Virus record (IMG/VR): IMGVR_UViG_2563366797_000003
Length of the DNA stretch: 40,813 nucleotides
Direction: 5' to 3' (one strand)
Source of the DNA: a virus
Lineage: Duplodnaviria; Heunggongvirae; Uroviricota; Caudoviricetes
Shown one piece after another: positions 2,835-24,919 of this stretch. The stretch's first letter is position 1. Each line of letters starts with the position of its first letter. The notes beneath the pieces are model-generated. The model saw only the letters and a list, made by a program, of their open reading frames with translations. It searched no databases and was not told the DNA's origin. Position numbers and translations under genes: made by a program.

Positions 2835-5800
2835 TTATGCCTGAGTACGCAGCGCTTCAAGGCGGCGCAGGTCGAAGTCGTTCAGTTCGTCGGTGTAGTC
2901 AGCAGTGATTGGCGCTGGCCATTCACCTGTGTCGAATCCGGTTGCGATATTGCGCATCGCTTTGCGGTACTCGAGCATACCCAGCTCCAGTAGTTCAGCG
3001 GATGCCTCGATGATGGCGATCCAGTGGTAGTTCTCGTCTTTGTTGACGAAAATCCAGAAGAACTGATCCAGCGCTGCGGTTTCGCAGTACATAGCCGCGC
3101 TCAGGTGATAATCACGTTCAATAATTTCCCGGTGTAGCCTGGCGCGCAGGCTTTCCTGCTTAACATTCCACATGCTGATGGTTTTCAGGTCTGCACCTAT
3201 ACGCACGCCATCCAGGTCGATCTCAAGGTCAGGGCGCACACGAACTTCCAAGCCCGTCTCCTCGTCAAAACCAAAGTAGCTCACCTCAACGGCTCGGCTA
3301 GGGTGGGTCAGCAGCATGCCGGCGGTCGGGTGTGCCAGAAGCGCTTTTTGAATATTCAGCGCGGTGCTCAGCTGCTGGCGGGTGACCAGCACTTTTCCTT
3401 CCGGGTTATCGCGCCAGGCATCCAGCAGTTCGTCGGCAAATACGGCATCTGGTTTGACTGCCTTCACGGCCTGGATCATGTCTGCTTTGGTACCGGACAC
3501 TTTCAGTGGTGCCGGTTTCTGTGCTTCCTGAGCCACAAGGTCAGGGTTGATGATTGCCAACTGCTCCAGCAGCGCGTCACGGCTGCCGCTGGTTTTAACC
3601 GGCGGCGGCAGGGTGGCGTTGTACTCTTTAATGCATGCCTTCATTGCCGTCGCCGTCTGCTTCTGGTCACCATCAATACGCTGGAAGTCAGCTGGCAGCG
3701 CCATATAGTTCTGTGCCGTTTCTTCCAGGTTAGCGCCAAGCGGAACCTGCGGCGGCAGGGTGGCGTTGTACTCTTCCAGTAACACCTTGATGTCGTCGGC
3801 AGACAGCAGCGCCGGCAGGCTGGCATTGTGCTCATCGATAAAGGCGCGCAGGGTCGCGGCCGTTGTGAATGCGCCTTCAGGGATCACCGGTTCAACGCTG
3901 AATTCTGCGTCCAGTAGTTCAGGCTGCAACGCCAGCGCATGCACCAAGTTGCCCATGTCCAGCACCGCTGAGCGCTCTTTGACGATGGTTTTCTCTACGT
4001 GGCGCGCATTGAAGTACATCAGCGAAACGCGCGCATCTTTCACCTGGGTTGAGCTGATGCCGTTGGCGGCGTGGTAAACCTCGTTTGGCAGCCCTTCATA
4101 GCGGCCTGGCTCGAAATAAGCGGGATAAACAACAGCTGGTTCGTCAGATTGCGCTTCTGGCTCGGTTTGTGCTGCAACTGGTTCGGTTTGGCTTACAGAA
4201 TCGCTATTTTTGGCGACAGAATCCGTATTCTGGTCTACATCGTCCTTCTGGCTGGTATCTGACTCTTCACCAGACTCCAGACTGCTTTCGCCTGGCTGTA
4301 CTTCATCACCAGCTTGTTTTTCATCACTGACAGTTTCTTGAACCTGCACATTGCTGGTGGTCTCCGTAGCCTTTTTCGTGCCATGAGTTGCTGAGTTCTG
4401 CAGCAAAGCCGTAACGTCGAATATTCCGTTGCCGACATTTTTAACCAGTTCTTGTTCGACTTTCTGCGGTTGTGCTGCCGCTTCCTCTGCGCGGCGGCGT
4501 GCTCCTTCTTCACGCACGCGTTGCAGGTTCTCTTCGTGAGTGCAGAAGGATTTGCGCGGAGACTCCTTACCTTCAGGTTGGGGAATTTCCTGTGCTGCGG
4601 GTTCAGCCTCATGCAACGGCAATAACTCGACCGCGGAATTGAACGCGGCTGTCATGGTCTGGTTAACAAATTCCAGGTGAGCGACAGGAGTTAAATGAAT
4701 ATTTTCCGGTGCGATACGTACCAGGTTAAAAATAGCCGTGCGGTTAACACCCAGAACGCCTGGCTGATTGCGCAGGATGTTGCTCCATGATTTCCATGGT
4801 TCTTCTTTTTTGGTCACGATTTCTTTAGCGCGACGAAGAATGCTGCCCGGGATCTCGAAGTGGTTGAAGTCCATAGGCAGAAGGGCACACGCAATCTCTA
4901 AATCGAGAGTGTCCAGTGTGTGGTGTGCGTCAGGTCCACGGTCAGTGACGTAACCGCCGTCGGCATTAGTGCCGGAATCAGTACGCTGCACACTACTGAT
5001 GCGATTACCGGCGGCCCATTCGCGAACGAGGATACCGCGGTCGATGTGATCTGTAGCGAACCACAATTTCAAAAACTGGATTAAGGTTGCGAGTTCAGGG
5101 ATTTTTCCATCGACAGGGAAGACTTTCTTAACGGCATTCACGACTTTATGAATATCGTGCTCAATGGCTTTTTTGAATGCTTCCACATTCTCAGCTGCCA
5201 GCAGCAGGTTCTGGACGTACGCGTCATCGGTGTCCATCTCAAGGCGGACAATCTCATTTTTCTGCCCTGCGTCGATGTGATAGAGATATTCACCATCACC
5301 GATGAACTGAGCCAGTACGCGCTGGCGGAATGGCAGGGTGGCAACAACGATCAGGTTCGGTTGCTGTGTCTGCTGGGATTGCTCTTCGGTATCGACTTCA
5401 CCATCAACGACGCCACCTTCTGCCCGGCCGTTCTCGTCGGTCTGGATACCGTCCTCAACAGTGAGATCTTGACCCGTTGTAACGTCAGCAGCGTTGCTGG
5501 TTTCAGTTTTGAGCAACTGCAACTTACCACTGCGCCAGTCTTCTACCAGTTGATTGCGGTCACCGGCATCGGTGTTCACCCAGTCAGACATGAATGCAGC
5601 GATCAATCTTGGCTCGTGCTCTTCGTCTGGTGTGAAAATGTCCTTAACCGCCCGAATCATTTTCCACTCAGCATTCAGGCTGAGTTTGGCGGTCGCGGGC
5701 ACATCGTTCCTTGCCACAAGCAGGCTATGGAGATATGTATTGCCTTCATCCAGTGACATTTCGCTGGCAGCCAACTGCTGCTCTTTAGTGACGTGGGTTT

Positions 5801-6224
5801 GGTATTTATCGTTCATCAGATGGACGGCAAAGCGGACCGCTGGAGTACGGTTTTCAACCGGGACAATTTCGGACGCAGTCGCATCTTCAACGATTACGGT
5901 CGGAGTAGGTGTGTAGGGGGCGTCAACGGAACCAGTAGACACACCAGCGGCTTTTGGCAGCCAGGTGCGCCCATCGTCCTGAAGCTCGTAGCGATCACAC
6001 CAGGTAAAATCAACTTCACCTTCTTTCGGCAGGCCGTCGACAACTGGGAAATCAGTGCGAATCGGTTTGGCGTAGTCCTTACCCCGACCTGTTTCGATAC
6101 CTGCATCTTCCAGCGCAACATCCAGCATCAGATTGGCGCGAGCCTCGGTTTTAGCAGTGAACCAGACCACTGCATCTTGCTTTCCGGATTTCTGAGTGGC
6201 TTTAACCACATTAAAGAATTCCAT
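2835..6224 (-). CDS. recE: RecE-like 5'-3' exonuclease (exonuclease VIII family), unusually large at 1129 aa
   Basis: Long ORF directly upstream of the annealing-protein gene. C-terminal region has RecE/YqaJ-type nuclease-like blocks (PAYFEPGRYEGLPNEVYHAANGISSTQ...; ...ERDYHLSAAMYCETAALDQFFWIFVNKDENYHWIAIIEA). N-terminal two thirds are acidic and low-complexity. Confidence 0.65.
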   Translation of the reverse strand: MEFFNVVKATQKSGKQDAVVWFTAKTEARANLMLDVALEDAGIETGRGKDYAKPIRTDFPVVDGLPKEGEVDFTWCDRYELQDDGRTWLPKAAGVSTGSVDAPYTPTPTVIVEDATASEIVPVENRTPAVRFAVHLMNDKYQTHVTKEQQLAASEMSLDEGNTYLHSLLVARNDVPATAKLSLNAEWKMIRAVKDIFTPDEEHEPRLIAAFMSDWVNTDAGDRNQLVEDWRSGKLQLLKTETSNAADVTTGQDLTVEDGIQTDENGRAEGGVVDGEVDTEEQSQQTQQPNLIVVATLPFRQRVLAQFIGDGEYLYHIDAGQKNEIVRLEMDTDDAYVQNLLLAAENVEAFKKAIEHDIHKVVNAVKKVFPVDGKIPELATLIQFLKLWFATDHIDRGILVREWAAGNRISSVQRTDSGTNADGGYVTDRGPDAHHTLDTLDLEIACALLPMDFNHFEIPGSILRRAKEIVTKKEEPWKSWSNILRNQPGVLGVNRTAIFNLVRIAPENIHLTPVAHLEFVNQTMTAAFNSAVELLPLHEAEPAAQEIPQPEGKESPRKSFCTHEENLQRVREEGARRRAEEAAAQPQKVEQELVKNVGNGIFDVTALLQNSATHGTKKATETTSNVQVQETVSDEKQAGDEVQPGESSLESGEESDTSQKDDVDQNTDSVAKNSDSVSQTEPVAAQTEPEAQSDEPAVVYPAYFEPGRYEGLPNEVYHAANGISSTQVKDARVSLMYFNARHVEKTIVKERSAVLDMGNLVHALALQPELLDAEFSVEPVIPEGAFTTAATLRAFIDEHNASLPALLSADDIKVLLEEYNATLPPQVPLGANLEETAQNYMALPADFQRIDGDQKQTATAMKACIKEYNATLPPPVKTSGSRDALLEQLAIINPDLVAQEAQKPAPLKVSGTKADMIQAVKAVKPDAVFADELLDAWRDNPEGKVLVTRQQLSTALNIQKALLAHPTAGMLLTHPSRAVEVSYFGFDEETGLEVRVRPDLEIDLDGVRIGADLKTISMWNVKQESLRARLHREIIERDYHLSAAMYCETAALDQFFWIFVNKDENYHWIAIIEASAELLELGMLEYRKAMRNIATGFDTGEWPAPITADYTDELNDFDLRRLEALRTQA
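3603..3835. repeat. Three direct copies of a ~25-bp coding repeat inside the RecE-like gene
   Basis: cggcggcagggtggcgttgtactctt at 3603-3629 and 3747-3777, with a diverged copy gccggcaggctggcattgtgctcat at 3811-3835. On the coding strand these give EYNATLPP, EYNATLPP and EHNASLPA. Confidence 0.7.
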
Positions 6225-6363
6225 GTGAGATCCTCATTTTTGGGTGTTAGAATCCCCGGACCATTGATAGCGCCCATTGGGTTAACTTTGGTTTTAATGT
6301 TGTTTCCGGTGTAACTTTGGTCGGTACCACCGGACGTAGATCCCGCCTTGCGCGGGGTTTTCG

Positions 6364-6525
6364 TTATGCTTCGTGGGCCATCTGGTCGAACGAAGCGCAA
6401 CGTACTGAACAGTAATCACGTTGCTCGCGTTTCAACTGCGTGCCGTGGATAAAGAGCAGTTCGTTTTTAACTTCCTTCCCTTGCTTGATCGGCTTGCGGC
6501 AGTACGCGCATTTTTTCTCCTGCAT
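6364..6525 (-). CDS. Small Cys4 zinc-ribbon-like protein (53 aa); position analogous to Rac-prophage ydaE
   Basis: Not in the supplied track because it is under 60 aa. ATG at 6525 preceded by GGAG; translation MQEKKCAYCRKPIKQGKEVKNELLFIHGTQLKREQRDYCSVRCASFDQMAHEA has CxxC...CxxxC. Lies just upstream of the RecE-like gene on the same strand. Confidence 0.45.
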   Translation of the reverse strand: MQEKKCAYCRKPIKQGKEVKNELLFIHGTQLKREQRDYCSVRCASFDQMAHEA

Positions 6526-6536
6526 AACTCACTCCG

Positions 6537-6743
6537 TTAATGGCTAAGGCCATGTCCTAAACCGTTTAGATAAACCTCAACCAGCAAATCTTTGGTGTAG
6601 GTACGTTCGATGCCACGGTGAAGATACAGGCGACCGCGTGCGTTAGCAGATGCGGTCCAGGTTGAGTCTTTGTGTTTTACAAGCATCCCCGGCTGAACTG
6701 CGCCGCGGTTTACTGTCTGTGTACCGTAGTGCTGATGAACCAT
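6537..6743 (-). CDS. Hypothetical early-left protein (68 aa from the internal ATG)
   Basis: The track ORF 6537..6845 begins with GTG and has no RBS; an internal ATG at 6743 has GGAG 8 nt upstream. Position is analogous to kil-type genes of lambdoid left operons, but no sequence match can be asserted. Confidence 0.3.
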   Translation of the reverse strand: MVHQHYGTQTVNRGAVQPGMLVKHKDSTWTASANARGRLYLHRGIERTYTKDLLVEVYLNGLGHGLSH

Positions 6744-7195
6744 GATGTACTCCAGTTTTTCTGAGTGAACTTCGCTGGTGTTGCTGCGGCGCTGATCTTC
6801 ACGGTTGAGCGCTTTAACTCTGCAATTCACCACCGCGAAGCTCACTTCTGTGCTTTGCCCTTGTCGCCAAGCTGGCGGAACGTTTCAAACCTACTGCGCG
6901 TTTAAGTATTGTTTTGAATACCAAAACCGAGTCAAATCAGCTTTAGTATTGCCACTCTCAAGTGGTTATCTGTCTTTGAGTTTGTGGATGATGATCTGCA
7001 TCATCACAGTCCATACCAGATTGGTTATTGCAACCGCTATAGCTGCTGTAGAAACCAAAGTCGCTAACGAGTAGTTGTCTGCCATAAATCAATCCATCCT
7101 TTACATCCTGAGGACGTTTCACCCTTATCGCCTTATCGCCGGCCAGCGGAGTTTTGGGCCATCTGCGCATTTGTGTGCGTTGTTTGGATGAGGTG

Positions 7196-7261
7196 ATAAT
7201 AGCTAAAGCGATTATTTGAATCAATCGCCTAAACGATAATATATTTAGATAAAGCGATAAT
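7196..7261 (-). promoter_or_regulatory. Leftward early promoter (pL-like) with OL operator sites
   Basis: On the minus strand: -35 TTGATT (plus 7219-7224), 17-bp spacer, -10 TATTAT (plus 7196-7201). Overlapping 14-bp dyads ATAGCTAAAGCGAT (7199-7212) and ATCGCCTAAACGAT (7224-7237), plus a weaker half-site at 7245-7258. Same ATCGC-N4-GCGAT motif as at OR. Confidence 0.5.
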
Positions 7262-7352
7262 TTTATGATTTATAAGATTATTTATTTGTTCGAGAAATGT
7301 GTGAGGAAATGACATTAGCGAAGTGATTGGGGGAAATTTAATCTGGTGAGGC

Positions 7353-7376
7353 AATAAAAAACCCGGCAAGCCGGGT
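7353..7376 (-). terminator. Intrinsic terminator downstream of cI
   Basis: Hairpin acccggcaagccgggt (7361-7376) immediately 3' of the cI stop, followed on the minus strand by a T-run (plus-strand aaaaaa at 7355-7360). Confidence 0.6.
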
Positions 7377-8069
7377 TTATGCGAAGCGCTTGTAGTCTAT
7401 TGATTGTCTCAGTAGCACTTTAGCCATTACGTAGAACTGATCTTCGTCTTCTGACTCAATATACCATTTCTCGTAGATAGGGTTGTCTGAGATAACAGCA
7501 AGCCGATCTCTTTGCATCTGAAGCCTTTTGACGTGCAGAGTTTTTCCGAACACAAATACGTAAACACCATCACCATCAAAATGAGTCACGCCAGTATCAA
7601 CAAAAATTTGATCTCCTGGTGAGATGGTTCCATCCATGCTGTCGCCGTTCACGGTAATAACTTTTACATTAGCTGCGGGGCGATTTCCGAAAAGTGCGCG
7701 AGCCTGTTCAGTTGTGTATTCGATTGCTCTTATGGTTTCGATAAAATCGCTGGTAACTAGCGAGCCAGGACCGGCGCTGGCCTTAACGTCAAGCACATCC
7801 ACGCGGTATATCTCATTCAAAACTGGTTTAATTTGGTATGGCGTGTTTACTTCGCGAATGCCAGATTCAAACATTTCACCTTGTCCTGTTGAAAGCCATT
7901 CAGGACGCACACCAAGAACAGATGCGATCTCTACTGTTTTTCGTGAGCCTTTCGCACCTTTAAGCAATTTATTTACGCTGGACTGAGCCATACCAACATC
8001 TTTCGCCAGCTTAGCCTGCGTATATCCAGCGACGTCCATTGCGTGCCCTAAGCGTTCTGAAAATCCCAT
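7377..8069 (-). CDS. cI: CI-type phage repressor (N-terminal HTH plus C-terminal S24 LexA-like peptidase domain)
   Basis: 230 aa; HTH region (YTQAKLAKDVGMAQSSVNKLLKG) and S24 autocleavage-type C-terminus (VNGDSMDGTISPGDQIFVD...KTLHVKRL). Divergent from a cro-like gene with an operator cluster between them. Confidence 0.9.
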   Translation of the reverse strand: MGFSERLGHAMDVAGYTQAKLAKDVGMAQSSVNKLLKGAKGSRKTVEIASVLGVRPEWLSTGQGEMFESGIREVNTPYQIKPVLNEIYRVDVLDVKASAGPGSLVTSDFIETIRAIEYTTEQARALFGNRPAANVKVITVNGDSMDGTISPGDQIFVDTGVTHFDGDGVYVFVFGKTLHVKRLQMQRDRLAVISDNPIYEKWYIESEDEDQFYVMAKVLLRQSIDYKRFA

Positions 8070-8082
8070 AAAAGCCTCTGTT

Positions 8083-8170
8083 TAAGTCCCCTTTAAATGG
8101 TATCGCTAAGGCGATTGCTTGGCAAAAAATCGCATAGGCGATTGACAATCGCTAAAGTGATATCCATAAT
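8083..8170. promoter_or_regulatory. OR region: three 14-bp operator dyads with divergent PRM-like and PR-like promoters
   Basis: Dyads ATCGCTAAGGCGAT (8102-8115), ATCGCATAGGCGAT (8129-8142), ATCGCTAAAGTGAT (8148-8161). Rightward promoter: -35 TTGACA 8143-8148, 16-bp spacer, -10 CATAAT 8165-8170. Leftward candidate: -35 revcomp of 8119-8124, -10 revcomp of 8091-8096. Confidence 0.6.
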
Positions 8171-8197
8171 CGTTTTAAACTAATAGCTGAGGTGATT

Positions 8198-8431
8198 ATG
8201 AAGAACCCCGCAGTAGAAAAAGCGATTGCCCTTGTCGGTAGTCAGAAAGAGTTAGCTAAACGCTGTGGAAAGGCCCAATCAACGATTTGTGATTGGTTGA
8301 ATGGGAAGAAGCGTATTTCTCCTGTTCATGTCCCAGACCTTGTTAATGCCGTTAACGGAGAAATTCAGGCATACGAATTTCGACCTGATCTTCCATCCAT
8401 TTTTCCACATCCAAATAACCATGCCATTTAG
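8198..8431 (+). CDS. cro: Cro-like HTH regulator (Cro/YdaS type)
   Basis: Small ORF divergent from cI, immediately downstream of the PR-like promoter. ATG at 8198 with GAGGTGA upstream (the track's start at 8192 is a GTG). HTH-like segment SQKELAKRCGKAQSTICDWLNGKK. Confidence 0.7.
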   Translation: MKNPAVEKAIALVGSQKELAKRCGKAQSTICDWLNGKKRISPVHVPDLVNAVNGEIQAYEFRPDLPSIFPHPNNHAI

Positions 8432-8472
8432 TCAAACCAGTGGCGTAACTCACTTTATGAGGGTTATCACCC

Positions 8473-8793
8473 ATGGAGAACGCAATCGCACGAAAGTTAG
8501 ACCCGCCAATTATCAATCCGGTTGAGATCGAAAGTGTCCTGCTCAACCGGCTTGCATCAGTGGGTCAGAAGTCTTACGCCGAGTATATGGGCATAAGCGA
8601 GTCGACAGCCAGCAGGCGCAAAGCAGAGGGGCATTTTAGCACCATGGCGAAAGAGCTGGCCTTCTTGGGTATTCAGGCTGCGCCACCGGAAGCGGTGCTG
8701 GTGTCACGTGAATATCTGGCCTCAGTCGAAACGCTCGCTGATATCGGACTGAAAGCCGAAAGGGCAAGGCCAGGGCCGCTGGGGTGGGATTGA
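8473..8793 (+). CDS. cII: CII-like transcriptional activator
   Basis: 106 aa; IESVLLNRLASVGQKSYAEYMGISESTASRRK parallels lambda CII IESALLNKIAMLGTEKTAEAVGVDKSQISRWK. Position between cro and O. Confidence 0.7.
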   Translation: MENAIARKLDPPIINPVEIESVLLNRLASVGQKSYAEYMGISESTASRRKAEGHFSTMAKELAFLGIQAAPPEAVLVSREYLASVETLADIGLKAERARPGPLGWD

Positions 8794-8794
8794 A

Positions 8795-8880
8795 GATGGC
8801 AGAAACCAGAAAAGGCGAAAGCCGCAGTGCACGAACACAAGCGGCTTTCTACGCGAATTAACTGAACAAATTCACAGGAG
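8795..8880 (-). ncRNA. Candidate oop-like antisense RNA overlapping the cII 3' end / cII-O junction
   Basis: Hairpin aaagccgc-(15 nt loop)-gcggcttt at 8818-8848, followed on the minus strand by a T-rich tract (revcomp of 8800-8817). Position matches lambda oop. No promoter confidently identified. Confidence 0.25.
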
Positions 8881-8885
8881 TAATT

Positions 8886-9812
8886 ATGGCAAATACTGCT
8901 GAAGTAATCAATTTCCCTATCAAAACCGAGCAAACAGGAGGTCCTATGGCCGACCTGTCCAACGGGTACACCCGGATCGCCAACGAGATTCAGAAGCTCA
9001 AACCACGCCTGCGCATGTCGGGGCGTGAATGGCAATGCCTGGAGGCGGTTATCTGGTTGACCTACGGATGGAACAAAAAACAGGACCGGGTTACTAATAC
9101 CGTCATCGCAGGGCTAACAGGCCTGGCTGATACGCATGTATCAGACGCGATCAGTTCTCTGGCTGAACGTGGAATTATTTTCAGTCACAAGCAGGGCGTG
9201 ATGAAAATTGTCGGTATAAATACTGACCTGAATGCCTGGATTTTGGACAAACCGAAAACGGGAAAACTCTTCCCGAAATCGGGAAAATCCTTCCCGAAAA
9301 CGGGAAAAACCTTCCCGGAAACAGTAGCCACCCAAGACTATAACAATAACAATATTAAAAGATCATCGTCAGAGAATTCTGGCGAATCCTCAGACGACCG
9401 GCTGAACAAGTTTTTATCAGCTCACCCTGAAGCGGTTATTTACACCCCCAACTTCACCAAGTGGGGAACAGTTGCTGACCAGCAATGCGCCGAGTGGATC
9501 CTCACTCTGCTCGAAAAAGTTAAACCCTTCCCGAAAAAACCCGTCATGGCCGCCTGGGCGAATGACGTGCGCCTGATGCGCGAGCTGGATGGCCGGAGCC
9601 ATCGTGAAATCTGCGAGCTTTTCCAGTGGGCCAGCAAGGACGCCTTCTGGCACGCCAATATCCTCTCGCCTGCAAAGCTCCGTGCTAAGTGGGACACGCT
9701 CTCACTTCAGCGCGACGCTGCCGCCCGTCGCACCACAACCGGCGGCGTCCCGGGCATCGACTTCAACAACACAGACTGGATCAACGAGGTGTTCGATGGA
9801 AAGACTATCTGA
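8886..9812 (+). CDS. O: Replication initiator, lambda O-like
   Basis: 308 aa; N-terminus resembles lambda O (LTYGWNKKQDRVTNTVIAGLTGL vs lambda KTYGWNKPMDRITDSQLSEITKL). Iteron repeats lie within the coding sequence and the gene is followed by a P-like gene. Confidence 0.8.
   Translation: MANTAEVINFPIKTEQTGGPMADLSNGYTRIANEIQKLKPRLRMSGREWQCLEAVIWLTYGWNKKQDRVTNTVIAGLTGLADTHVSDAISSLAERGIIFSHKQGVMKIVGINTDLNAWILDKPKTGKLFPKSGKSFPKTGKTFPETVATQDYNNNNIKRSSSENSGESSDDRLNKFLSAHPEAVIYTPNFTKWGTVADQQCAEWILTLLEKVKPFPKKPVMAAWANDVRLMRELDGRSHREICELFQWASKDAFWHANILSPAKLRAKWDTLSLQRDAAARRTTTGGVPGIDFNNTDWINEVFDGKTI
9250..9365. repeat. Replication-origin iterons inside the O gene, followed by an AT-rich tract
   Basis: Three and a half tandem ~20-bp repeats of cttcccgaaaacgggaaaa-type (each internally palindromic: tcccg-aaa-cggga) at 9250-9323, encoding KTGKLFPKSGKSFPKTGKTFPE. 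AT-rich segment actataacaataacaatattaaaagatcat at 9336-9365. Confidence 0.75.
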
Positions 9813-21581: not shown

Positions 21582-23050
21582 TGGCACGAAACAAGCAATC
21601 CTCTCAGCGAACGGCACAGGCCACCGCTGACGGCTACGAGAACTTCGTCGCCCGCGTTGGGATGCAGACGCCTAACCAGCATTCAGCATCGACCTACCGG
21701 GCGAACTTCACCAGCCGCAACCGCATGCTGGTGGAATGGTCATATCGCGGTTCGTGGGTTATCGGTGAAGCGGTCGACGCTATCCCGGACGATATGACCC
21801 GAAAGGGCATTCGCATCACTTCGGAGATTGACGCCAAAGACCGTGGCACCCTCGAAGCGCAACTGGATGAGTTGCAGATCTGGGATGCGCTGAACGACGT
21901 GCTGAAATGGTCGCGCCTCTACGGCGGCGCGGTCGGCTTCATCATGATCGAGGGGCAAGCACCAATGACCCCGCTGCGACTCGAAACCATTGGCGAGGGC
22001 AAGTTTAAGGGCATTCTCCCGCTCGACCGCTGGATGATTAACCCGGTGCTGACACGCCGCATTAAAGAGATGGGGCCGGACCTCGGCAAGCCTGAGTTTT
22101 ACGACGTGGTGACCACCGCAACGGGCATTCCGGCCTGGCGCATCCATCACAGCCGCCTGATCCGCTTTGATGGCGTCACGCTGCCATTCCAGCAGAAGAT
22201 GACCGAAAACGAATGGGGAATGTCGGTTGTAGAGCGTATCTGGGATCGGCTTACTGCGTTCGATAGCGCTACTGTCGGCGCGGCGCAGCTGGTCTATAAA
22301 GCGCATCTGCGTACCTATAGCGTGGAGAAGTTGCGCGAGCTTATCGCGCTTGGAGGCCCGGCGTTCGAAGCGTTGCTGAAGAACATCGACCTGATCCGCC
22401 AGTTCCAGAGCAATGAAGGTATGACGCTCATGGACTCGCGGGATAAGTTCGAAACCCACCAGTACAGCTTTAGTGGTCTGGATGACATTCTTTCGCAGTT
22501 TGCTGAGCAGATCAGCGGTGCCGTTGGTATCCCGCTGGTACGCCTGTTCGGTCAATCCCCGAAAGGCTTCTCTACTGGTGATGCAGACCTCGCCAACTAT
22601 TACGACCGGGTGAGCTCATTGCAGGAGCGCCGCTTACGGCTGCCGATGCGCCGGATACTGGACATTATGCACCGCTCGGAACTCGGAAAGCCGCTGCCGG
22701 ACGATTTCACGTTTGAGTTTAACCCGCTATGGCAAATGTCAGACGTTGACCGATCAACGGTGGCCGTAAACACCACCAACGCGATCAGTACCGCGCTGGG
22801 CGACGGATTGATGACGCGTAAGGCGGCGATGACCGACCTGCGCGAAAACTCTGACGTCACCGGCATCGGGGCATCCATTACCGACGAGGATATCGAGAAT
22901 GCCGAAGACGAAGCGCCGCCAGGCATCGGCGAACTTGGCGACAAACCGCCAGAGCCGCCAGGCGGAGATCCGATATCGAACGAGCCTACGGCAGATAGCG
23001 CGGGCGGTCGGGGATATCGTAAATGGTCGCTACGATGGTTCAAACGATAG
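21581..23050 (+). CDS. Portal protein
   Basis: 489 aa, directly after the large terminase; acidic C-terminus. Family by recollection (DUF1073-type portal). Confidence 0.65.
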   Translation: MARNKQSSQRTAQATADGYENFVARVGMQTPNQHSASTYRANFTSRNRMLVEWSYRGSWVIGEAVDAIPDDMTRKGIRITSEIDAKDRGTLEAQLDELQIWDALNDVLKWSRLYGGAVGFIMIEGQAPMTPLRLETIGEGKFKGILPLDRWMINPVLTRRIKEMGPDLGKPEFYDVVTTATGIPAWRIHHSRLIRFDGVTLPFQQKMTENEWGMSVVERIWDRLTAFDSATVGAAQLVYKAHLRTYSVEKLRELIALGGPAFEALLKNIDLIRQFQSNEGMTLMDSRDKFETHQYSFSGLDDILSQFAEQISGAVGIPLVRLFGQSPKGFSTGDADLANYYDRVSSLQERRLRLPMRRILDIMHRSELGKPLPDDFTFEFNPLWQMSDVDRSTVAVNTTNAISTALGDGLMTRKAAMTDLRENSDVTGIGASITDEDIENAEDEAPPGIGELGDKPPEPPGGDPISNEPTADSAGGRGYRKWSLRWFKR

Positions 23051-23672
23051 CGTCACCGAAATAATGGATGCGCTGGAGCGCTACAGCGAAATCATCACCC
23101 CCTGGGCGACTAAGGTTGCTGAGAGCTTCACCGCCGACATTGCGCGCCAGAATGAAAAGCAGTGGCGTCAGCACAGTCGGAACATCAGCGCAGAACTACG
23201 CAACATGGTCGACCGCGCCCCGGTAGGCCAGGTGATGAAATCCATCGTCGCCGAGCAAATTAAGTACATCAAATCTCTGCCTCTTGAGGCCGCCGATCGG
23301 GTGTATGACATTCAGAACAAGGCCATCGAGGCTGTAGTAACTGGTGGCCGCGCTGAGCCATTCGCGAAAGAGATAGCTGCTTCCGGTGACGTGTCACGCT
23401 CACGAGCGAACCTTATCTCCCGGACTGAGCTTGGGCGCGCAACCGGTGCATTGGATCAGGCGCGTGCGCTGTCAATCGGCTCGAATGGTTATATCTGGCG
23501 TACAGCCGAAGATGGCGACGTCCGGCATTCTCATCGAGAGATGGAAGGGAAGTTTGTCGAATGGGGCCGACCTCCAACGCTTGACGGCATGACCGGTCAC
23601 GCTGGCGAGCTCCCGAACTGCCGCTGTTACAAAGAAATCGTCTTCCCCAACCCTCATTCTTATCTCGCCTGA
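22899..23672 (+). CDS. Head morphogenesis protein (Mu F / SPP1 gp7 family)
   Basis: 257 aa with the conserved C-terminal signature (DVRHSHREMEGKFVEWG...HAGELPNCRCYKEI). The first ATG is at 22899, overlapping the portal 3' end by 152 nt; the next in-frame Met is at 23064. Confidence 0.7.
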   Translation: MPKTKRRQASANLATNRQSRQAEIRYRTSLRQIARAVGDIVNGRYDGSNDSVTEIMDALERYSEIITPWATKVAESFTADIARQNEKQWRQHSRNISAELRNMVDRAPVGQVMKSIVAEQIKYIKSLPLEAADRVYDIQNKAIEAVVTGGRAEPFAKEIAASGDVSRSRANLISRTELGRATGALDQARALSIGSNGYIWRTAEDGDVRHSHREMEGKFVEWGRPPTLDGMTGHAGELPNCRCYKEIVFPNPHSYLA

Positions 23673-23686
23673 ATCGCAGGTAAACC

Positions 23687-24919
23687 ATGAAATATTTTTT
23701 CAATACCCGGCTGGGGGAAACCCGTTATCAGCTGGCTGACGGCTCGCTGCTGTGCAAAGACGTGCCGATAGGTCGAACGGGTAAGCAGCTTTACGGCGCT
23801 GCCGATCTGCCAAACCTCAAACCCGACAAGCTCGGCGAGATAGTCGTAACGCGCTCTCCTGATCAGGTATTCCATCCGGCCACGCTCGCCTCATTCGAAG
23901 GGATGAGCATCACGATCCTGCATCCTGAAGATGAAAACGGGAATGTGCGGCTGGTCAACCCCGAGAACTGGAAAGAGCTTGCGGTCGGGCATCTTCAGAA
24001 CGTTCGGCGCGGGACTGGTGATCAGTCTGATTTGATGCTGGCTGACCTTATCGTCAAAGACGAAAGCGCCATTCAGCTGATCGAAGATGGTCTGCGCGAA
24101 GTGTCGTGCGGCTATGACGCTGAGTACGAGCAGACCGAACCCGGAAAAGCCGAGCAGGTCGATATTACCGGAAACCATGTGGCTCTTGTCCCTAAAGGCA
24201 GAGCCGGAAATCGTTGTGCAATTGGAGACAGAGACACAATGGCAAATCAAAAGAAAAGCTGGTGGACCCGCATGCGCACGGCCATCAAAACGGGTGATGC
24301 TGACACCATGAACGAACTGCTGGACTCTGCGCCAGCGGCGGTAACGGGCGATGAAGGGGATCTGCCGAGCGGCGTTAACCTCAACATTAATCTTTCACCG
24401 CAACAACCATTGCCGGACAAAAAGCCGGAAATGGGCGGAGAGCCAACCGGCGACGGCGAGGACGATATCAAAACCTTGCTCAAAGCCCTGCTGGCTAAGC
24501 TGGAAGGTACTGCAACGGGCGATAACGACGATAAGCCTGACGGCAAAGATAACAAAGACCCTACCGGCGAGGGTGAGGACGACGAAGAGGAAACCACGAT
24601 TACCGGTGACGCTGCTTATCGTGCCGAAGTTATCGTTCCGGGTATCGATCTGAGCCGTAAGGTGAAACCGACCGCGTTCAAACGTGATGTGCTGTCCGCC
24701 GCTGACAAAACACTGGTTCGCCAGGTTGTCGGTGATGCAGATATCCGCAAATTGCCCAAGCAATCGGTCGATATGGCGTTTAACGCCGTGTCTGAGATTG
24801 CCAAAGGGCGAAACACCCGCAGCACCACGGGCGATGCACAACGTCCAAATATGGGCATGACCAGCATCGCTTCCCTGAACAAACAAAACGCCGACTTCTG
24901 GTCTAACCGCAAAGGATAA
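23687..24919 (+). CDS. Putative head scaffolding/maturation protein (DUF2213-like N-terminus, acidic low-complexity middle)
   Basis: 410 aa; acidic tract GDGEDDIKTLLKALLAKLEGTATGDNDDKPDGKDNKDPTGEGEDDEEE; lies between the morphogenesis and capsid genes. Confidence 0.5.
   Translation: MKYFFNTRLGETRYQLADGSLLCKDVPIGRTGKQLYGAADLPNLKPDKLGEIVVTRSPDQVFHPATLASFEGMSITILHPEDENGNVRLVNPENWKELAVGHLQNVRRGTGDQSDLMLADLIVKDESAIQLIEDGLREVSCGYDAEYEQTEPGKAEQVDITGNHVALVPKGRAGNRCAIGDRDTMANQKKSWWTRMRTAIKTGDADTMNELLDSAPAAVTGDEGDLPSGVNLNINLSPQQPLPDKKPEMGGEPTGDGEDDIKTLLKALLAKLEGTATGDNDDKPDGKDNKDPTGEGEDDEEETTITGDAAYRAEVIVPGIDLSRKVKPTAFKRDVLSAADKTLVRQVVGDADIRKLPKQSVDMAFNAVSEIAKGRNTRSTTGDAQRPNMGMTSIASLNKQNADFWSNRKG

What the first reader, a model, noticed from the sequence alone, without database searches (positions are those of the whole stretch)
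6225..7376. Unresolved coding content immediately downstream of the leftward early promoter
This 1.1-kb stretch between cI and the RecE-like gene contains a promoter-operator cluster but no convincing long ORF. Candidates are a 53-aa Cys4 zinc-ribbon ORF (6364-6525, -), a 68-aa ORF with a good RBS (6537-6743, -), a 70-aa basic ORF starting at 7170 (-) without an RBS, and on the opposite strand a 28-codon hydrophobic peptide (MMICIITVHTRLVIATAIAAVETKVANE, ATG at 6988) that would be antisense to the pL transcript. In lambdoid phages this position holds N, kil, cIII or sieB-type small genes. A small hydrophobic peptide antisense to an early transcript would resemble a type I toxin arrangement, but that is speculative.
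Basis: inference. Interest (0 to 1): 0.45.

Follow-up and report, generated by a model that had tools for sequence, protein, structure and literature searches.

The report
Early leftward operon start, lambdoid prophage
The "unresolved" 1.1 kb is the start of a lambdoid prophage's early leftward operon: two known small genes (a cell-division inhibitor and a zinc-ribbon protein), an overlooked conserved 39-residue membrane-peptide gene, and an antisense small RNA already known from Salmonella prophages. The opposite-strand "toxin" peptide is only the mirror image of the 39-residue gene.

Summary

- **Known genes.** The 53-aa Cys4 ORF is a YdaE-family protein. The 68-aa ORF is a KilR-type cell-division inhibitor. 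Gene order is as in Rac: kil-ydaE-recE-recT.
- **Not genes.** The 70-aa basic ORF is not conserved. The + strand 28-codon hydrophobic ORF is an automatic by-product of a real minus-strand gene (81% of random back-translations of that gene recreate it).
- **The real gene.** It is a 39-aa single-helix membrane peptide at 7085..6966 (-), about 100 nt downstream of predicted pL. Its homologs are always the first cistron after an early promoter, across several immunity types. Substitutions are mostly synonymous. It is unannotated in RefSeq, present in 2 of 5426 complete E. coli genomes, and belongs to no described family. Its function is unknown.
- **Overlooked sRNA.** An IsrB-like antisense sRNA lies between ydaE and recE (6259-6362, +). 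It is syntenic with Salmonella Gifsy IsrB.
- **Negatives.** No nut/boxA site, N, cIII, KilS or type I antitoxin was found.

Verdict: mostly ordinary, with one new orphan small protein. Interest is modest.

The parts
7359..7378 (-). Intrinsic terminator ending the cI (pRM) transcript, just upstream of OL/pL
   Evidence: 8-bp stem (5 GC pairs), 4-nt loop, followed by a T-run on the minus strand. It lies directly after the cI stop at 7377.
7197..7263 (.). OL: three copies of the repressor operator (7199-7214, 7222-7238, 7246-7261)
   Evidence: the same 16-19 bp palindromic motif recurs at OR (8102-8117, 8129-8144, 8148-8163, 8183-8198).
7196..7224 (-). Predicted pL promoter (TTGATT-17-TATTAT); predicted start near 7189
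   Evidence: consensus scan. It overlaps OL1 and OL2. The mosaic breakpoints of OW1E2 (7196) and EC2001 (7166) fall here. The promoter is predicted, not shown.
7086..7189 (-). 5' leader of the pL transcript. It holds leader-motif copy A (about 7172-7131, ...TCCGCTGGCCGGCGATAAGG...) and a Shine-Dalgarno-like AAGGATGGA
   Evidence: The same leader precedes kil directly in L028/L030 and precedes the 41-aa homolog in L007. Folding is not exceptional (z +0.9).
6966..7085 (-). Unannotated 39-aa gene (MADNYSLATLVSTAAIAVAITNLVWTVMMQIIIHKLKDR): a single-helix membrane peptide and the first cistron of the pL operon
   Evidence: - Homologs at 97, 85 and 79% identity.
- Always on the kil strand and first after an early promoter, in different immunity contexts.
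- 12-13 synonymous versus 3-5 non-synonymous codon changes.
- A Shine-Dalgarno-like purine-rich stretch upstream of the start in every variant although the upstream sequence differs (read by eye).
- AF2 predicts one helix, residues 3-38, pLDDT 88.
6988..7074 (+).
   Evidence: - Nested in the 39-aa gene with coinciding third codon positions.
- Recreated in 81% of random back-translations of the 39-aa protein.
- No + strand promoter in 6254-7215.
- The weak GAG upstream of its ATG is lost in L008.
- Substitution rate 0.185 versus 0.108 per residue for the sense frame.
6958..7170 (-). 70-aa basic ORF: chance ORF, not conserved
   Evidence: The ATG is absent and there is an in-frame stop in L007; L008 has no ATG. 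Identity in this frame is 62% and 51%, against 91% and 85% in the 39-aa frame over the same bases. No family hit.
6859..6903 (-). Leader-motif copy B (AAACGCGCAG...TCCGCCAGCTTGGCGACAAGG), which bounds the 39-aa cassette on the kil side
   Evidence: In Z142-1 a single copy follows pL directly, and the roughly 300-bp cassette (about 6889-7186) is absent.
6764..6846 (-). Long-range stem in the kil leader (5' arm 6846-6828, 3' arm 6780-6764), ending about 15 nt before the kil Shine-Dalgarno
   Evidence: The Rac kilR leader has an equivalent ~22-bp closing stem (z -4.6). By eye, two C-G pairs here correspond to T-A pairs in Rac. No formal covariation test was run.
6537..6743 (-). kil: KilR-family inhibitor of cell division (68 aa)
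   Evidence: - phrog_294 at E 3e-35.
- NF008465 at E 4e-17, 62 bits, below its 92-bit cut-off.
- 34% identity to Rac KilR, E 6e-13.
- PF27398 KilR on the 68-aa and 98-aa products called at this position in L009-L018.
- The start at 6743 is supported by a 1-nt indel upstream in mEp237.
6364..6525 (-). ydaE-family Cys4 zinc-ribbon protein (53 aa)
   Evidence: NF041288 at 99.4 bits against a cut-off of 35. phrog_1520 at E 3e-29. 50% identity to K-12 YdaE.
6225..6362 (+). IsrB-like antisense sRNA gene: promoter GTGAGA-17-TAGAAT with TG extension (6225-6253), RNA about 6259-6362 ending in an intrinsic terminator
   Evidence: - RF01386 at 32 bits (gathering score 35), E 0.0013, full-length match.
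- Homologs at the same place in Kluyvera and Pseudocitrobacter score 35.6 and 34.9 bits.
- The extended -10 (TGTTAGAAT), central hairpin and terminator are invariant across genera.
- Same '<- -> <-' position next to sbcA/recE as Salmonella IsrB-1/2 (PMC2330248).

Best explanation
The interval is the promoter-proximal part of the early leftward (pL) operon of a lambdoid, Rac/Gifsy-like E. coli prophage. An identical copy sits in strain HH107, next to kch.

What the sequence and comparisons show:
- The cI transcript ends at a terminator. Three operators overlap a sigma-70-type pL.
- The pL transcript would read, in order: a short conserved leader, a 39-aa single-helix membrane peptide, a structured roughly 220-nt spacer, kil, ydaE, recE and recT.
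- The 39-aa gene is a real, protein-level-conserved but unannotated orphan. It sits on a roughly 300-bp cassette bracketed by diverged copies of the leader motif. A related prophage lacks the cassette.
- Between ydaE and recE, on the opposite strand, lies a homolog of the Salmonella Gifsy sRNA IsrB. Its own extended -10 promoter overlaps the recE start, and it ends in an intrinsic terminator.

What is inferred:
- When the S24-type repressor is inactivated, pL fires and the membrane peptide is the first product made.
- By the positive-inside rule it inserts N-out/C-in. It presents one invariant face of small and polar residues (S12, A15, A19, N22, T26, Q30), with which it most likely binds a host inner-membrane protein or itself.
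- My best guess is an early host-takeover role at the envelope, working alongside Kil. That guess alone is about 35% likely.
- Kil then blocks FtsZ (and MreB, as shown for Rac KilR).
- The IsrB-like RNA is complementary to about 100 nt of the pL mRNA just upstream of the recE ribosome-binding site. It probably modulates recET expression or processing in cis, and perhaps other targets in trans.
For: - **Operators, promoter and terminator:**
- **Kil and YdaE family membership and Rac-like gene order:**
- **The 39-aa gene has homologs.** P0001, P0002 and P0003 are 97, 85 and 79% identical.
- **Its context is constant.** It is always co-oriented with kil and first after an early promoter. This holds with four different repressor types and with either a KilR-type or a lambda-Kil-type gene downstream.
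- **Its substitutions look like coding.** 13-14 of 18-22 nucleotide differences fall at third positions. There are 12-13 synonymous versus 3-6 non-synonymous codons.
- **Start region and neighbours.** N-terminal length differences are in frame, and a Shine-Dalgarno-like stretch is present in each variant. In L008 the next gene starts 4 nt after the stop.
- **Structure.** AF2 predicts a single helix, pLDDT 88. Kyte-Doolittle maximum over 19 residues is 2.04.
- **Mirror ORF.** It is explained by simulation.
- **Cassette indel:**
- **IsrB:**, plus the published synteny (PMC2330248).
- **KilR function and Rho/NusG control:** PMC12482147 and PMC5793797.
Against: - There is no expression data for any element here. 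pL, its start site and the IsrB promoter are consensus predictions.
- The sense and antisense frames of the small gene share third codon positions. dN/dS alone cannot separate them, and only four distinct haplotypes exist.
- The IsrB match in this window is 3 bits below Rfam's gathering score, and no covariation is available because the helices are invariant. That conservation could also serve the ydaE-recE junction on the other strand.
- The function of the 39-aa peptide rests only on position, topology and residue conservation.
- The kil association may simply reflect that both genes are promoter-proximal.
- The 3' half of the small ORF shows few synonymous changes, which hints at an extra nucleotide-level constraint that I cannot explain.
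Confidence: 0.78

Rival explanations
1. The + strand 28-aa hydrophobic peptide (6988-7074) is the real product. It would be a type I-toxin-like gene antisense to the pL transcript.
For: The ORF, its ATG and its stop are retained in all four haplotypes. It is as hydrophobic over 19 residues as the sense peptide.
Against: - Its retention is expected. 100% of random back-translations of the sense protein keep this frame open for at least 28 codons, and 81% give an ATG ORF of at least 25 codons.
- No + strand promoter-like site lies between 6254 and 7215.
- A + strand terminator-like hairpin sits just upstream of it, at 6951-6966.
- The only Shine-Dalgarno-like triplet is lost in L008.
- It has a higher and less conservative substitution rate than the sense frame.
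- Synonymous changes in the sense frame continue outside its limits.
- Gene callers choose the sense ORF.
- No Pfam, NCBIfam or PHROG toxin family is hit. The Pfam scan was run on the 89-aa TTG ORF 6805-7074 that contains it.
Confidence: 0.04
2. The 39-aa peptide is a self-sufficient membrane-damaging toxin of the TisB/DinQ/holin-like kind. It would be repressed by the prophage repressor rather than by an antisense RNA, and would kill or arrest the host on induction.
For: It is a small single TM helix with a conserved polar stripe (N22, T26, Q30) suited to oligomerisation. It is repressor-controlled and therefore indirectly SOS-inducible. It sits next to another host-killing gene.
Against: It matches no known toxin family. 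No antitoxin RNA is evident. A lethal first cistron would be costly whenever pL leaks, yet the gene has no obvious additional control. No phenotype data exist.
Confidence: 0.2
3. The 39-aa peptide is a functional replacement for lambda CIII. It would be a small membrane-associated modulator of FtsH that stabilises CII.
For: It occupies the slot just upstream of kil, where cIII sits in lambda (my own knowledge of the lambda map). All four immunity contexts that carry it also carry a cII gene. No CIII-like protein was found in the window or in neighbouring pL genes. The two related prophages that lack the cassette show a YdaS/YdaT-type right arm with no cII in view.
Against: It has no sequence similarity to CIII, and it is a transmembrane rather than an amphipathic helix. 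EC2001 has the same immunity region and cII but a different pL operon without this gene. The correlation rests on very few independent lineages.
Confidence: 0.12
4. The 39-codon ORF is not a functional protein. The conservation would reflect an RNA or DNA element of the pL leader, or a leader peptide whose translation merely protects the transcript from Rho.
For: - The 3' half of the ORF shows few synonymous changes.
- kil in Rac is controlled by Rho/NusG (PMC5793797, PMC12482147).
- The region sits in a long leader with hairpins.
Against: - The third-position-dominated substitution pattern, with conservative replacements.
- In-frame N-terminal indels, and a Shine-Dalgarno-like stretch retained despite diverged upstream sequence.
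- Conservation of the ORF alone in L008, where both flanks differ.
- The leader does not fold better than shuffles.
Confidence: 0.08
5. The 70-aa basic ORF starting at 7170 is an N-like antiterminator.
For: It has a basic N-terminus and sits in the promoter-proximal position typical of N.
Against: - No Shine-Dalgarno sequence, and the start lies only about 19 nt after the predicted transcription start.
- The ATG is missing and the frame is interrupted in L007. Identity in this frame is 51-62%.
- No boxA within the leader or on the pR side.
- The leader motif is not repeated downstream of pR.
- No family hit.
Confidence: 0.01

Closest known systems
Rac prophage kilR-ydaE-(racC)-recE-recT early operon of E. 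coli K-12
   Same: Same gene order and strand logic: repressor, then early promoter, then kil, ydaE, recE and recT. Kil is 34% identical and YdaE 50% identical. A long closing stem lies just upstream of the kil Shine-Dalgarno in both.
   Different: - No racC here.
- No homolog of the KilS sRNA or its terminator.
- No sieB/ydaF/ydaG between promoter and kil. A 39-aa membrane-peptide cassette sits there instead.
- The repressor is a cI/S24 type with a cII-O-P right arm, not RacR/YdaS/YdaT.
IsrB-1/IsrB-2 sRNAs of Salmonella Gifsy-2/Gifsy-1 (Rfam RF01386)
   Same: It is encoded antisense ('<- -> <-') beside the recE/sbcA start. It is about 90-105 nt long and ends in an intrinsic terminator (PMC2330248). 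The covariance-model match is full-length.
   Different: This copy scores 32 bits, just under the 35-bit gathering score. Expression, Hfq or ProQ binding and 5' ends are untested in E. coli. The spacer between the first and second hairpins differs.
Small single-pass membrane proteins of bacteria and prophages (for example MgtS, MgtR, AcrZ, and YdfD next to dicB in Qin)
   Same: It is a roughly 40-aa single TM helix with an invariant small/polar face. It is encoded beside a prophage division inhibitor, as ydfD is beside dicB.
   Different: It has no sequence relationship to any of them. YdfB, of similar size in Qin, is hydrophilic and unrelated. No target is known. The family is an orphan: one real cluster among 1.84 billion representatives.
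Type I toxin-antitoxin loci (hok/sok, tisB/istR, ldr/rdl, ralR/ralA)
   Same: A small hydrophobic peptide, and an antisense sRNA elsewhere in the same operon.
   Different: The peptide has no promoter of its own and no overlapping antisense RNA gene. The antisense sRNA (IsrB-like) lies 600 nt away, opposite the ydaE-recE junction. No toxin family is matched.
Lambda pL leader (nutL, N, cIII)
   Same: An operator-overlapped pL, a structured leader, and small early genes before the recombination genes.
   Different: No boxA/boxB, no N-like protein and no CIII-like protein. A Q-type antiterminator is the only one annotated.

Membership tests
KilR / phage Kil (FtsZ inhibitor) family | Sequence match to family profiles | tested here: met
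   phrog_294 at E 2.8e-35, full length. PF27398 KilR is on record for the 68-aa and 98-aa products called at this position in L009-L018. 34% identity to Rac KilR, E 6e-13. NF008465 gives only 62 bits against a cut-off of 92, so it is not an equivalog of Rac KilR.
KilR / phage Kil (FtsZ inhibitor) family | Position in the early leftward operon, upstream of ydaE-recE-recT | tested here: met
KilR / phage Kil (FtsZ inhibitor) family | Inhibits FtsZ ring formation and causes filamentation | not testable with these tools
   This needs expression and microscopy. It has been shown for Rac KilR only (PMC12482147).
YdaE family (NF041288 / PF27493) | Profile match above the curated cut-off, with four Cys | tested here: met
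   99.4 bits against a cut-off of 35. Cys at C6, C9, C39 and C43. 50% identity to K-12 YdaE.
IsrB sRNA (Rfam RF01386) | Covariance-model score at or above the gathering score (35 bits) | tested here: not met
   32.0 bits, E 0.0013, full-length 1-87. Syntenic homologs in other genera score 35.6, 34.9 and 33.1 bits.
IsrB sRNA (Rfam RF01386) | Location antisense between recE/sbcA and the upstream small gene; about 90 nt; intrinsic terminator | tested here: met
   and Table 1 of PMC2330248.
IsrB sRNA (Rfam RF01386) | Expressed as a discrete RNA that binds Hfq or ProQ | not testable with these tools
   This needs Northern blotting or CLIP.
Type I toxin-antitoxin system | Small hydrophobic toxin ORF | tested here: met
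   A 39-aa TM helix on the minus strand.
Type I toxin-antitoxin system | Overlapping or adjacent antisense sRNA gene with its own promoter and terminator | tested here: not met
   No + strand promoter-like site between 6254 and 7215. The only + strand hairpins there are weak.
Type I toxin-antitoxin system | Toxin belongs to a described toxin family | tested here: not met
   No hit in Pfam, NCBIfam or PADLOC; only phrog_32414 at E 0.033.
Lambda N / nut antitermination | boxA (CGCTCTTWA) and a boxB hairpin in the pL and pR leaders, plus an Arg-rich N protein | tested here: not met
   No boxA in 6744-7189 or 8431-8900, and the matches found in the whole window are no more than chance. The 70-aa ORF is not conserved. 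The leader motif is absent from the pR side.
Lambda CIII | Sequence or profile similarity to CIII | tested here: not met
   No Pfam hit for the 39-aa protein. tblastn with a CIII sequence recalled from memory found nothing better than E 2.3.
KilS sRNA of Rac (kilR 5' UTR) | Sequence homolog with a terminator upstream of kil | tested here: not met
   The best local alignment is 14 nt. There is no T-run terminator in 6744-6965 on the minus strand.

The most novel reading that the evidence does not exclude
The 39-aa peptide founds a new class of immediate-early phage membrane effectors that acts together with Kil. It precedes either of two unrelated Kil families. In Klebsiella and Entomohabitans prophages, unrelated ~36-aa hydrophobic ORFs overlap the kil start. 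One reading is that it tethers or directs the soluble division/elongation inhibitor to membrane-bound divisome or elongasome components. The alternative reading is that it replaces CIII as an FtsH modulator in cII-bearing, cIII-less lambdoid phages.
Probability: 0.15. Interest if true: 0.55.

Novelty: new member of a known kind. Interest (0 to 1): 0.33.

Why it matters
- **Annotation.** It closes a gap in a common class of E. coli prophages. Kil and YdaE are placed. A conserved small membrane protein that annotation pipelines skip is identified as the very first product of the early operon.
- **The Salmonella sRNA IsrB.** It is shown to belong to a recE-linked module shared across enterobacterial genera.
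- **The small protein as an experimental target.** It is cheap to test, and its role might bear on host takeover or on the lysis-lysogeny decision.
- **A caution for ORF reading.** A transmembrane coding segment almost always creates a hydrophobic open frame on the opposite strand.

Tried and rejected
- **nut/boxA.** The consensus search gave 11 hits against 14.8 expected, none in the leaders. The leader motif has no partner downstream of pR. Rejected.
- **Rfam.** At gathering thresholds the whole window gave nothing. The other low-scoring hits (rsmX, CRISPR-DR22, snoRNAs) are the cI terminator or chance.
- **KilS.** No sequence homolog of the Rac kilR 5'-UTR sRNA.
- **YdfB.** I guessed that the 42-aa/72-aa pair in L008 equals YdfB/YdfC of Qin. 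Both K-12 proteins are hydrophilic and unrelated. Rejected.
- **CIII.** No Pfam hit in neighbouring pL genes and no tblastn hit.
- **Defence systems.** PADLOC gave nothing meaningful.
- **More homologs of the 39-aa protein.**
  - The phage tblastn, the plasmid and phage DNA searches, and the genome contigs and metagenome scans found none.
  - An exhaustive HMM search found one real cluster plus repeats-protein noise.
  - A first protein search failed because the query was under 40 aa.
- **Extended 102-aa Kil from GTG 6845.** Rejected because a 1-nt indel in mEp237 breaks that frame.
- **Internal minus-strand promoter-like site at 6935..6908.** It is not conserved in L007, so I did not pursue it.
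- **Flanking direct repeat of the cassette.** In this window alone it is not statistically significant (score 17 against shuffles of 13.6 ± 2.3). It is credible only because the same motif recurs in other loci.
Full report
**Context.** The window is a complete lambdoid prophage. It is identical over the stretches compared, 6200-7400, to a prophage integrated next to kch in E. coli HH107. Around the finding the layout is as follows.
- recT and recE (recE 2835-6224) lie on the minus strand.
- cI, an S24 repressor, lies at 7377-8069 (-).
- cro, cII, O and P lie on the plus strand.
- A Q-type antiterminator is annotated far downstream. No N is annotated.

RefSeq annotates only two genes inside the finding and leaves 633 bp between cI and kil empty.

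**Checking the observation.**
- The operator cluster is real. A 16-19 bp palindromic motif occurs three times at 7199-7261, and again three to four times between cI and cro.
- A sigma-70-like promoter (TTGATT-17-TATTAT, 7224..7196, minus strand) overlaps two operators.
- The cI transcript ends at a clean terminator at 7378..7359.
- Mosaic breakpoints fall exactly at this promoter. They separate prophages that share either the immunity region (EC2001, homology from 7166 rightwards) or the operon (OW1E2, homology up to 7196).

**The two ORFs that are known genes.**
- *6364-6525 (-).* This is a YdaE-family protein. NF041288 scores 99 bits against a cut-off of 35, phrog_1520 gives E 3e-29, and it is 50% identical to K-12 YdaE.
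- *6537-6743 (-).* This is a Kil/KilR-type division inhibitor.
  - phrog_294 gives E 3e-35, and it is 34% identical to Rac KilR at E 6e-13.
  - The products called at this position in L009-L018 carry PF27398.
  - It scores below the NCBIfam equivalog cut-off, so it is a family member and not an ortholog of Rac KilR.
  - The ATG at 6743 is the start. The upstream GTG extension is put out of frame by a 1-nt indel in phage mEp237.

Gene order matches Rac: kilR-ydaE-(racC)-recE-recT. Rac KilR inhibits FtsZ and MreB and is silenced by Rho/NusG (PMC12482147, PMC5793797).

**The stretch between pL and kil.** Comparison with related prophages shows two things.
- About 160 nt upstream of kil (6744-6902) travels with kil at 92-99% identity.
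- About 300 bp (roughly 6889-7186) is a cassette. It is present in only 2 of 5426 complete E. coli genomes, HH107 and OW1E2, and is unannotated in both. It is absent from Z142-1, where pL abuts the kil leader. In strain 1094 a different 630-bp insert lies at this site.

**Evidence that the 39-aa ORF is a gene.**
- A search of 5.8 billion proteins found three relatives at 97, 85 and 79% identity. The exact sequence is on record on 27 contigs, and a Kluyvera copy is deposited as a hypothetical protein.
- In every context the gene is on the kil strand and is the first ORF after an operator-bearing early promoter. This holds with four different repressor types. In L008 it precedes a lambda-Kil-family gene rather than a KilR-family one.
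- Between haplotypes, 13-14 of 18-22 nucleotide differences are at third codon positions. There are 12-13 synonymous against 3-6 non-synonymous codon changes, and the replacements are conservative (V/I, A/G, D/E).
- N-terminal length differences are in frame. Each variant keeps a Shine-Dalgarno-like stretch although the upstream sequence differs.
- AlphaFold2 gives a single helix, residues 3-38, at pLDDT 88.
- The termini (acidic N, basic C) predict an N-out/C-in orientation by the positive-inside rule.
- The invariant residues S12, A15, A19, N22, T26 and Q30 fall on one helical face. That is the usual signature of a helix-helix contact surface.
- An exhaustive HMM search of 1.84 billion representatives found only this one cluster. 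No Pfam, NCBIfam, PADLOC or convincing PHROG family matches.

**The + strand hydrophobic ORF.**
- It lies wholly inside the 39-aa gene, in the antisense frame whose third positions coincide with those of the sense frame. It therefore stays open in all four haplotypes.
- That retention is uninformative. Random back-translations of the sense protein keep this antisense frame stop-free for at least 28 codons every time, and produce an ATG-initiated ORF of at least 25 codons in 81% of trials.
- Against it as a gene:
  - No + strand promoter-like site lies anywhere between 6254 and 7215.
  - A + strand hairpin sits just upstream of it.
  - Its only Shine-Dalgarno-like triplet is lost in L008.
  - It has more, and less conservative, substitutions per residue (0.185 against 0.108).
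  - Synonymous sense-frame changes continue beyond its boundaries.

The type I toxin reading is therefore not supported. I cannot formally exclude it from four haplotypes alone.

**The 70-aa basic ORF.**
- It loses its ATG and gains a stop in L007.
- It is only 51-62% identical in that frame, where the true frame is 85-91% identical.
- It has no family hit.
- No boxA occurs in either early leader, and the conserved leader motif has no partner on the pR side.

There is no evidence for an N/nut system.

**The antisense element that does exist.** The 139-bp ydaE-recE spacer matches Rfam isrB full-length on the + strand (6266-6362; 32 bits against a gathering score of 35; E 0.0013).
- It has an extended -10 promoter (TGTTAGAAT, 6245-6253) that is invariant in eight prophages, with the predicted -35 (GTGAGA, 6225-6230) next to the recE start codon.
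- It has an invariant central hairpin and an intrinsic terminator.
- Copies at the same position in Kluyvera, Pseudocitrobacter and Citrobacter prophages score 35.6, 34.9, 33.1 and 31.1 bits.
- Salmonella IsrB-1 and IsrB-2 were mapped between sbcA (recE) and the neighbouring small gene of Gifsy-2 and Gifsy-1, in the same '<- -> <-' orientation. They are 88/94 nt with a terminator, and are induced by starvation (PMC2330248). A ProQ association is also reported (PMC5391140).
- I therefore regard it as an IsrB homolog, noting that the score is marginal.
- Its RNA would be complementary to about 100 nt of the pL transcript just upstream of the recE ribosome-binding site. A cis effect on recET is an inference.

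**Other structure in the leader.**
- The kil leader folds into a long closing stem (6846-6828 with 6780-6764) that ends about 15 nt before the kil Shine-Dalgarno.
- The Rac kilR leader has an equivalent ~22-bp stem (z -4.6). By eye, two C-G pairs here correspond to T-A pairs in Rac. No formal covariation test was run.
- Rac's KilS sRNA, which lies upstream of that stem (PMC8175672), has no homolog here.
- A leader motif (...TCCGCYRGCYKGGCGAYAAGG...) directly follows early promoters in this phage group. It precedes whichever gene comes first: kil in L028/L030, the 41-aa gene in L007, and a different small hydrophobic ORF in L035.
- In the window this motif occurs on both sides of the 39-aa cassette. 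That would explain the presence/absence polymorphism by recombination.

**Mechanism and its limits.**
- *Shown by sequence and comparison:* the gene content, the order, the conservation pattern and the operator/promoter layout.
- *Inferred:*
  - pL fires on repressor loss.
  - The membrane peptide is made first and acts through its conserved helix face on a host membrane partner.
  - Kil then blocks division.
  - The IsrB-like RNA modulates recET.
- *Function of the peptide:* I put about 35% on an envelope or division-linked takeover role alongside Kil, 20% on a self-sufficient membrane toxin, and 12% on a CIII-like FtsH modulator. For the last, all four contexts that carry the gene have cII and no cIII was found. 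The remainder is something else.

**Verdict.**
- The finding is largely resolved into known parts: Kil, YdaE, OL/pL and IsrB.
- It also contains one real, unannotated, orphan small membrane protein.
- Novelty is modest, and so is interest.

Noticed in passing
window 6225-6362 (+): An IsrB-like antisense sRNA gene lies between ydaE and recE. Its extended -10 promoter lies just upstream of the recE start and ribosome-binding site, with the -35 next to the start codon. It is syntenic with Salmonella Gifsy IsrB-1/2, and homologs in Kluyvera and Pseudocitrobacter reach the Rfam gathering score.
   Followed up: yes
window 6764-6846 (-); L023 6722-6905 (-): A long closing stem lies just upstream of the kil Shine-Dalgarno. 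It appears conserved between this prophage and Rac, with apparent compensatory C-G to T-A changes. It could be an RNase III site or a translational control element. Rac's KilS sRNA itself is absent here.
   Followed up: partly
window 7131-7172 and 6859-6903 (-); L007, L028, L030, L035: A conserved promoter-proximal leader motif (...TCCGCYRGCYKGGCGAYAAGG) precedes whichever gene is first in the early leftward operon of this phage group. In the window it flanks the 39-aa cassette on both sides. Its function is unknown, and there is no copy on the pR side.
   Followed up: partly
L041 1398-1508, L042, L033, L035 1359-1508: In Klebsiella and Entomohabitans prophages an unrelated ~36-49-aa hydrophobic ORF (for example MSRNGIRSLVIVLAICPVAWSATIIKILHVTGVFNG) ends overlapping the kil start codon. 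This suggests a recurrent pairing of a small membrane peptide with kil.
   Followed up: partly
window 6966-7030 (-): The 3' half of the 39-aa ORF (GTGATGATGCAGATCATCATCCAC...) shows almost no synonymous variation among haplotypes, while the 5' half is saturated with it. Codon preference, recent recombination or an extra nucleotide-level constraint could explain this; it remains unexplained.
   Followed up: no
L003 3132-3629 (E. coli OW1E2); L005 2604-3236 (E. coli 1094): The same operon accepts other cargo. In OW1E2 an HNH endonuclease gene is inserted between ydaE and recE, replacing the IsrB terminator with a different hairpin. In strain 1094 a 630-bp insert with two hypothetical ORFs sits in the kil leader.
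   Followed up: no
L009 4028-4748 (and L010-L018): In the prophages that carry the 97%-identical copy of the small gene, a 159-aa gene and a 45-aa opposite-strand ORF sit between cI and OL/pL. That is the position of rexAB in lambda. Neither has a Pfam hit.
   Followed up: no
window about 22401-23924 (+): RefSeq marks the portal gene of this prophage in HH107 as incomplete (missing its N-terminus). It overlaps the prohead protease/capsid fusion gene. The prophage may be defective, or the call may be an annotation artefact.
   Followed up: no
window 7216-7245 (+): A promoter-like site (TTGAAT-18-TATATT) inside OL points towards the 3' end of cI. It is probably a chance match in AT-rich palindromic operators.
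   Followed up: no
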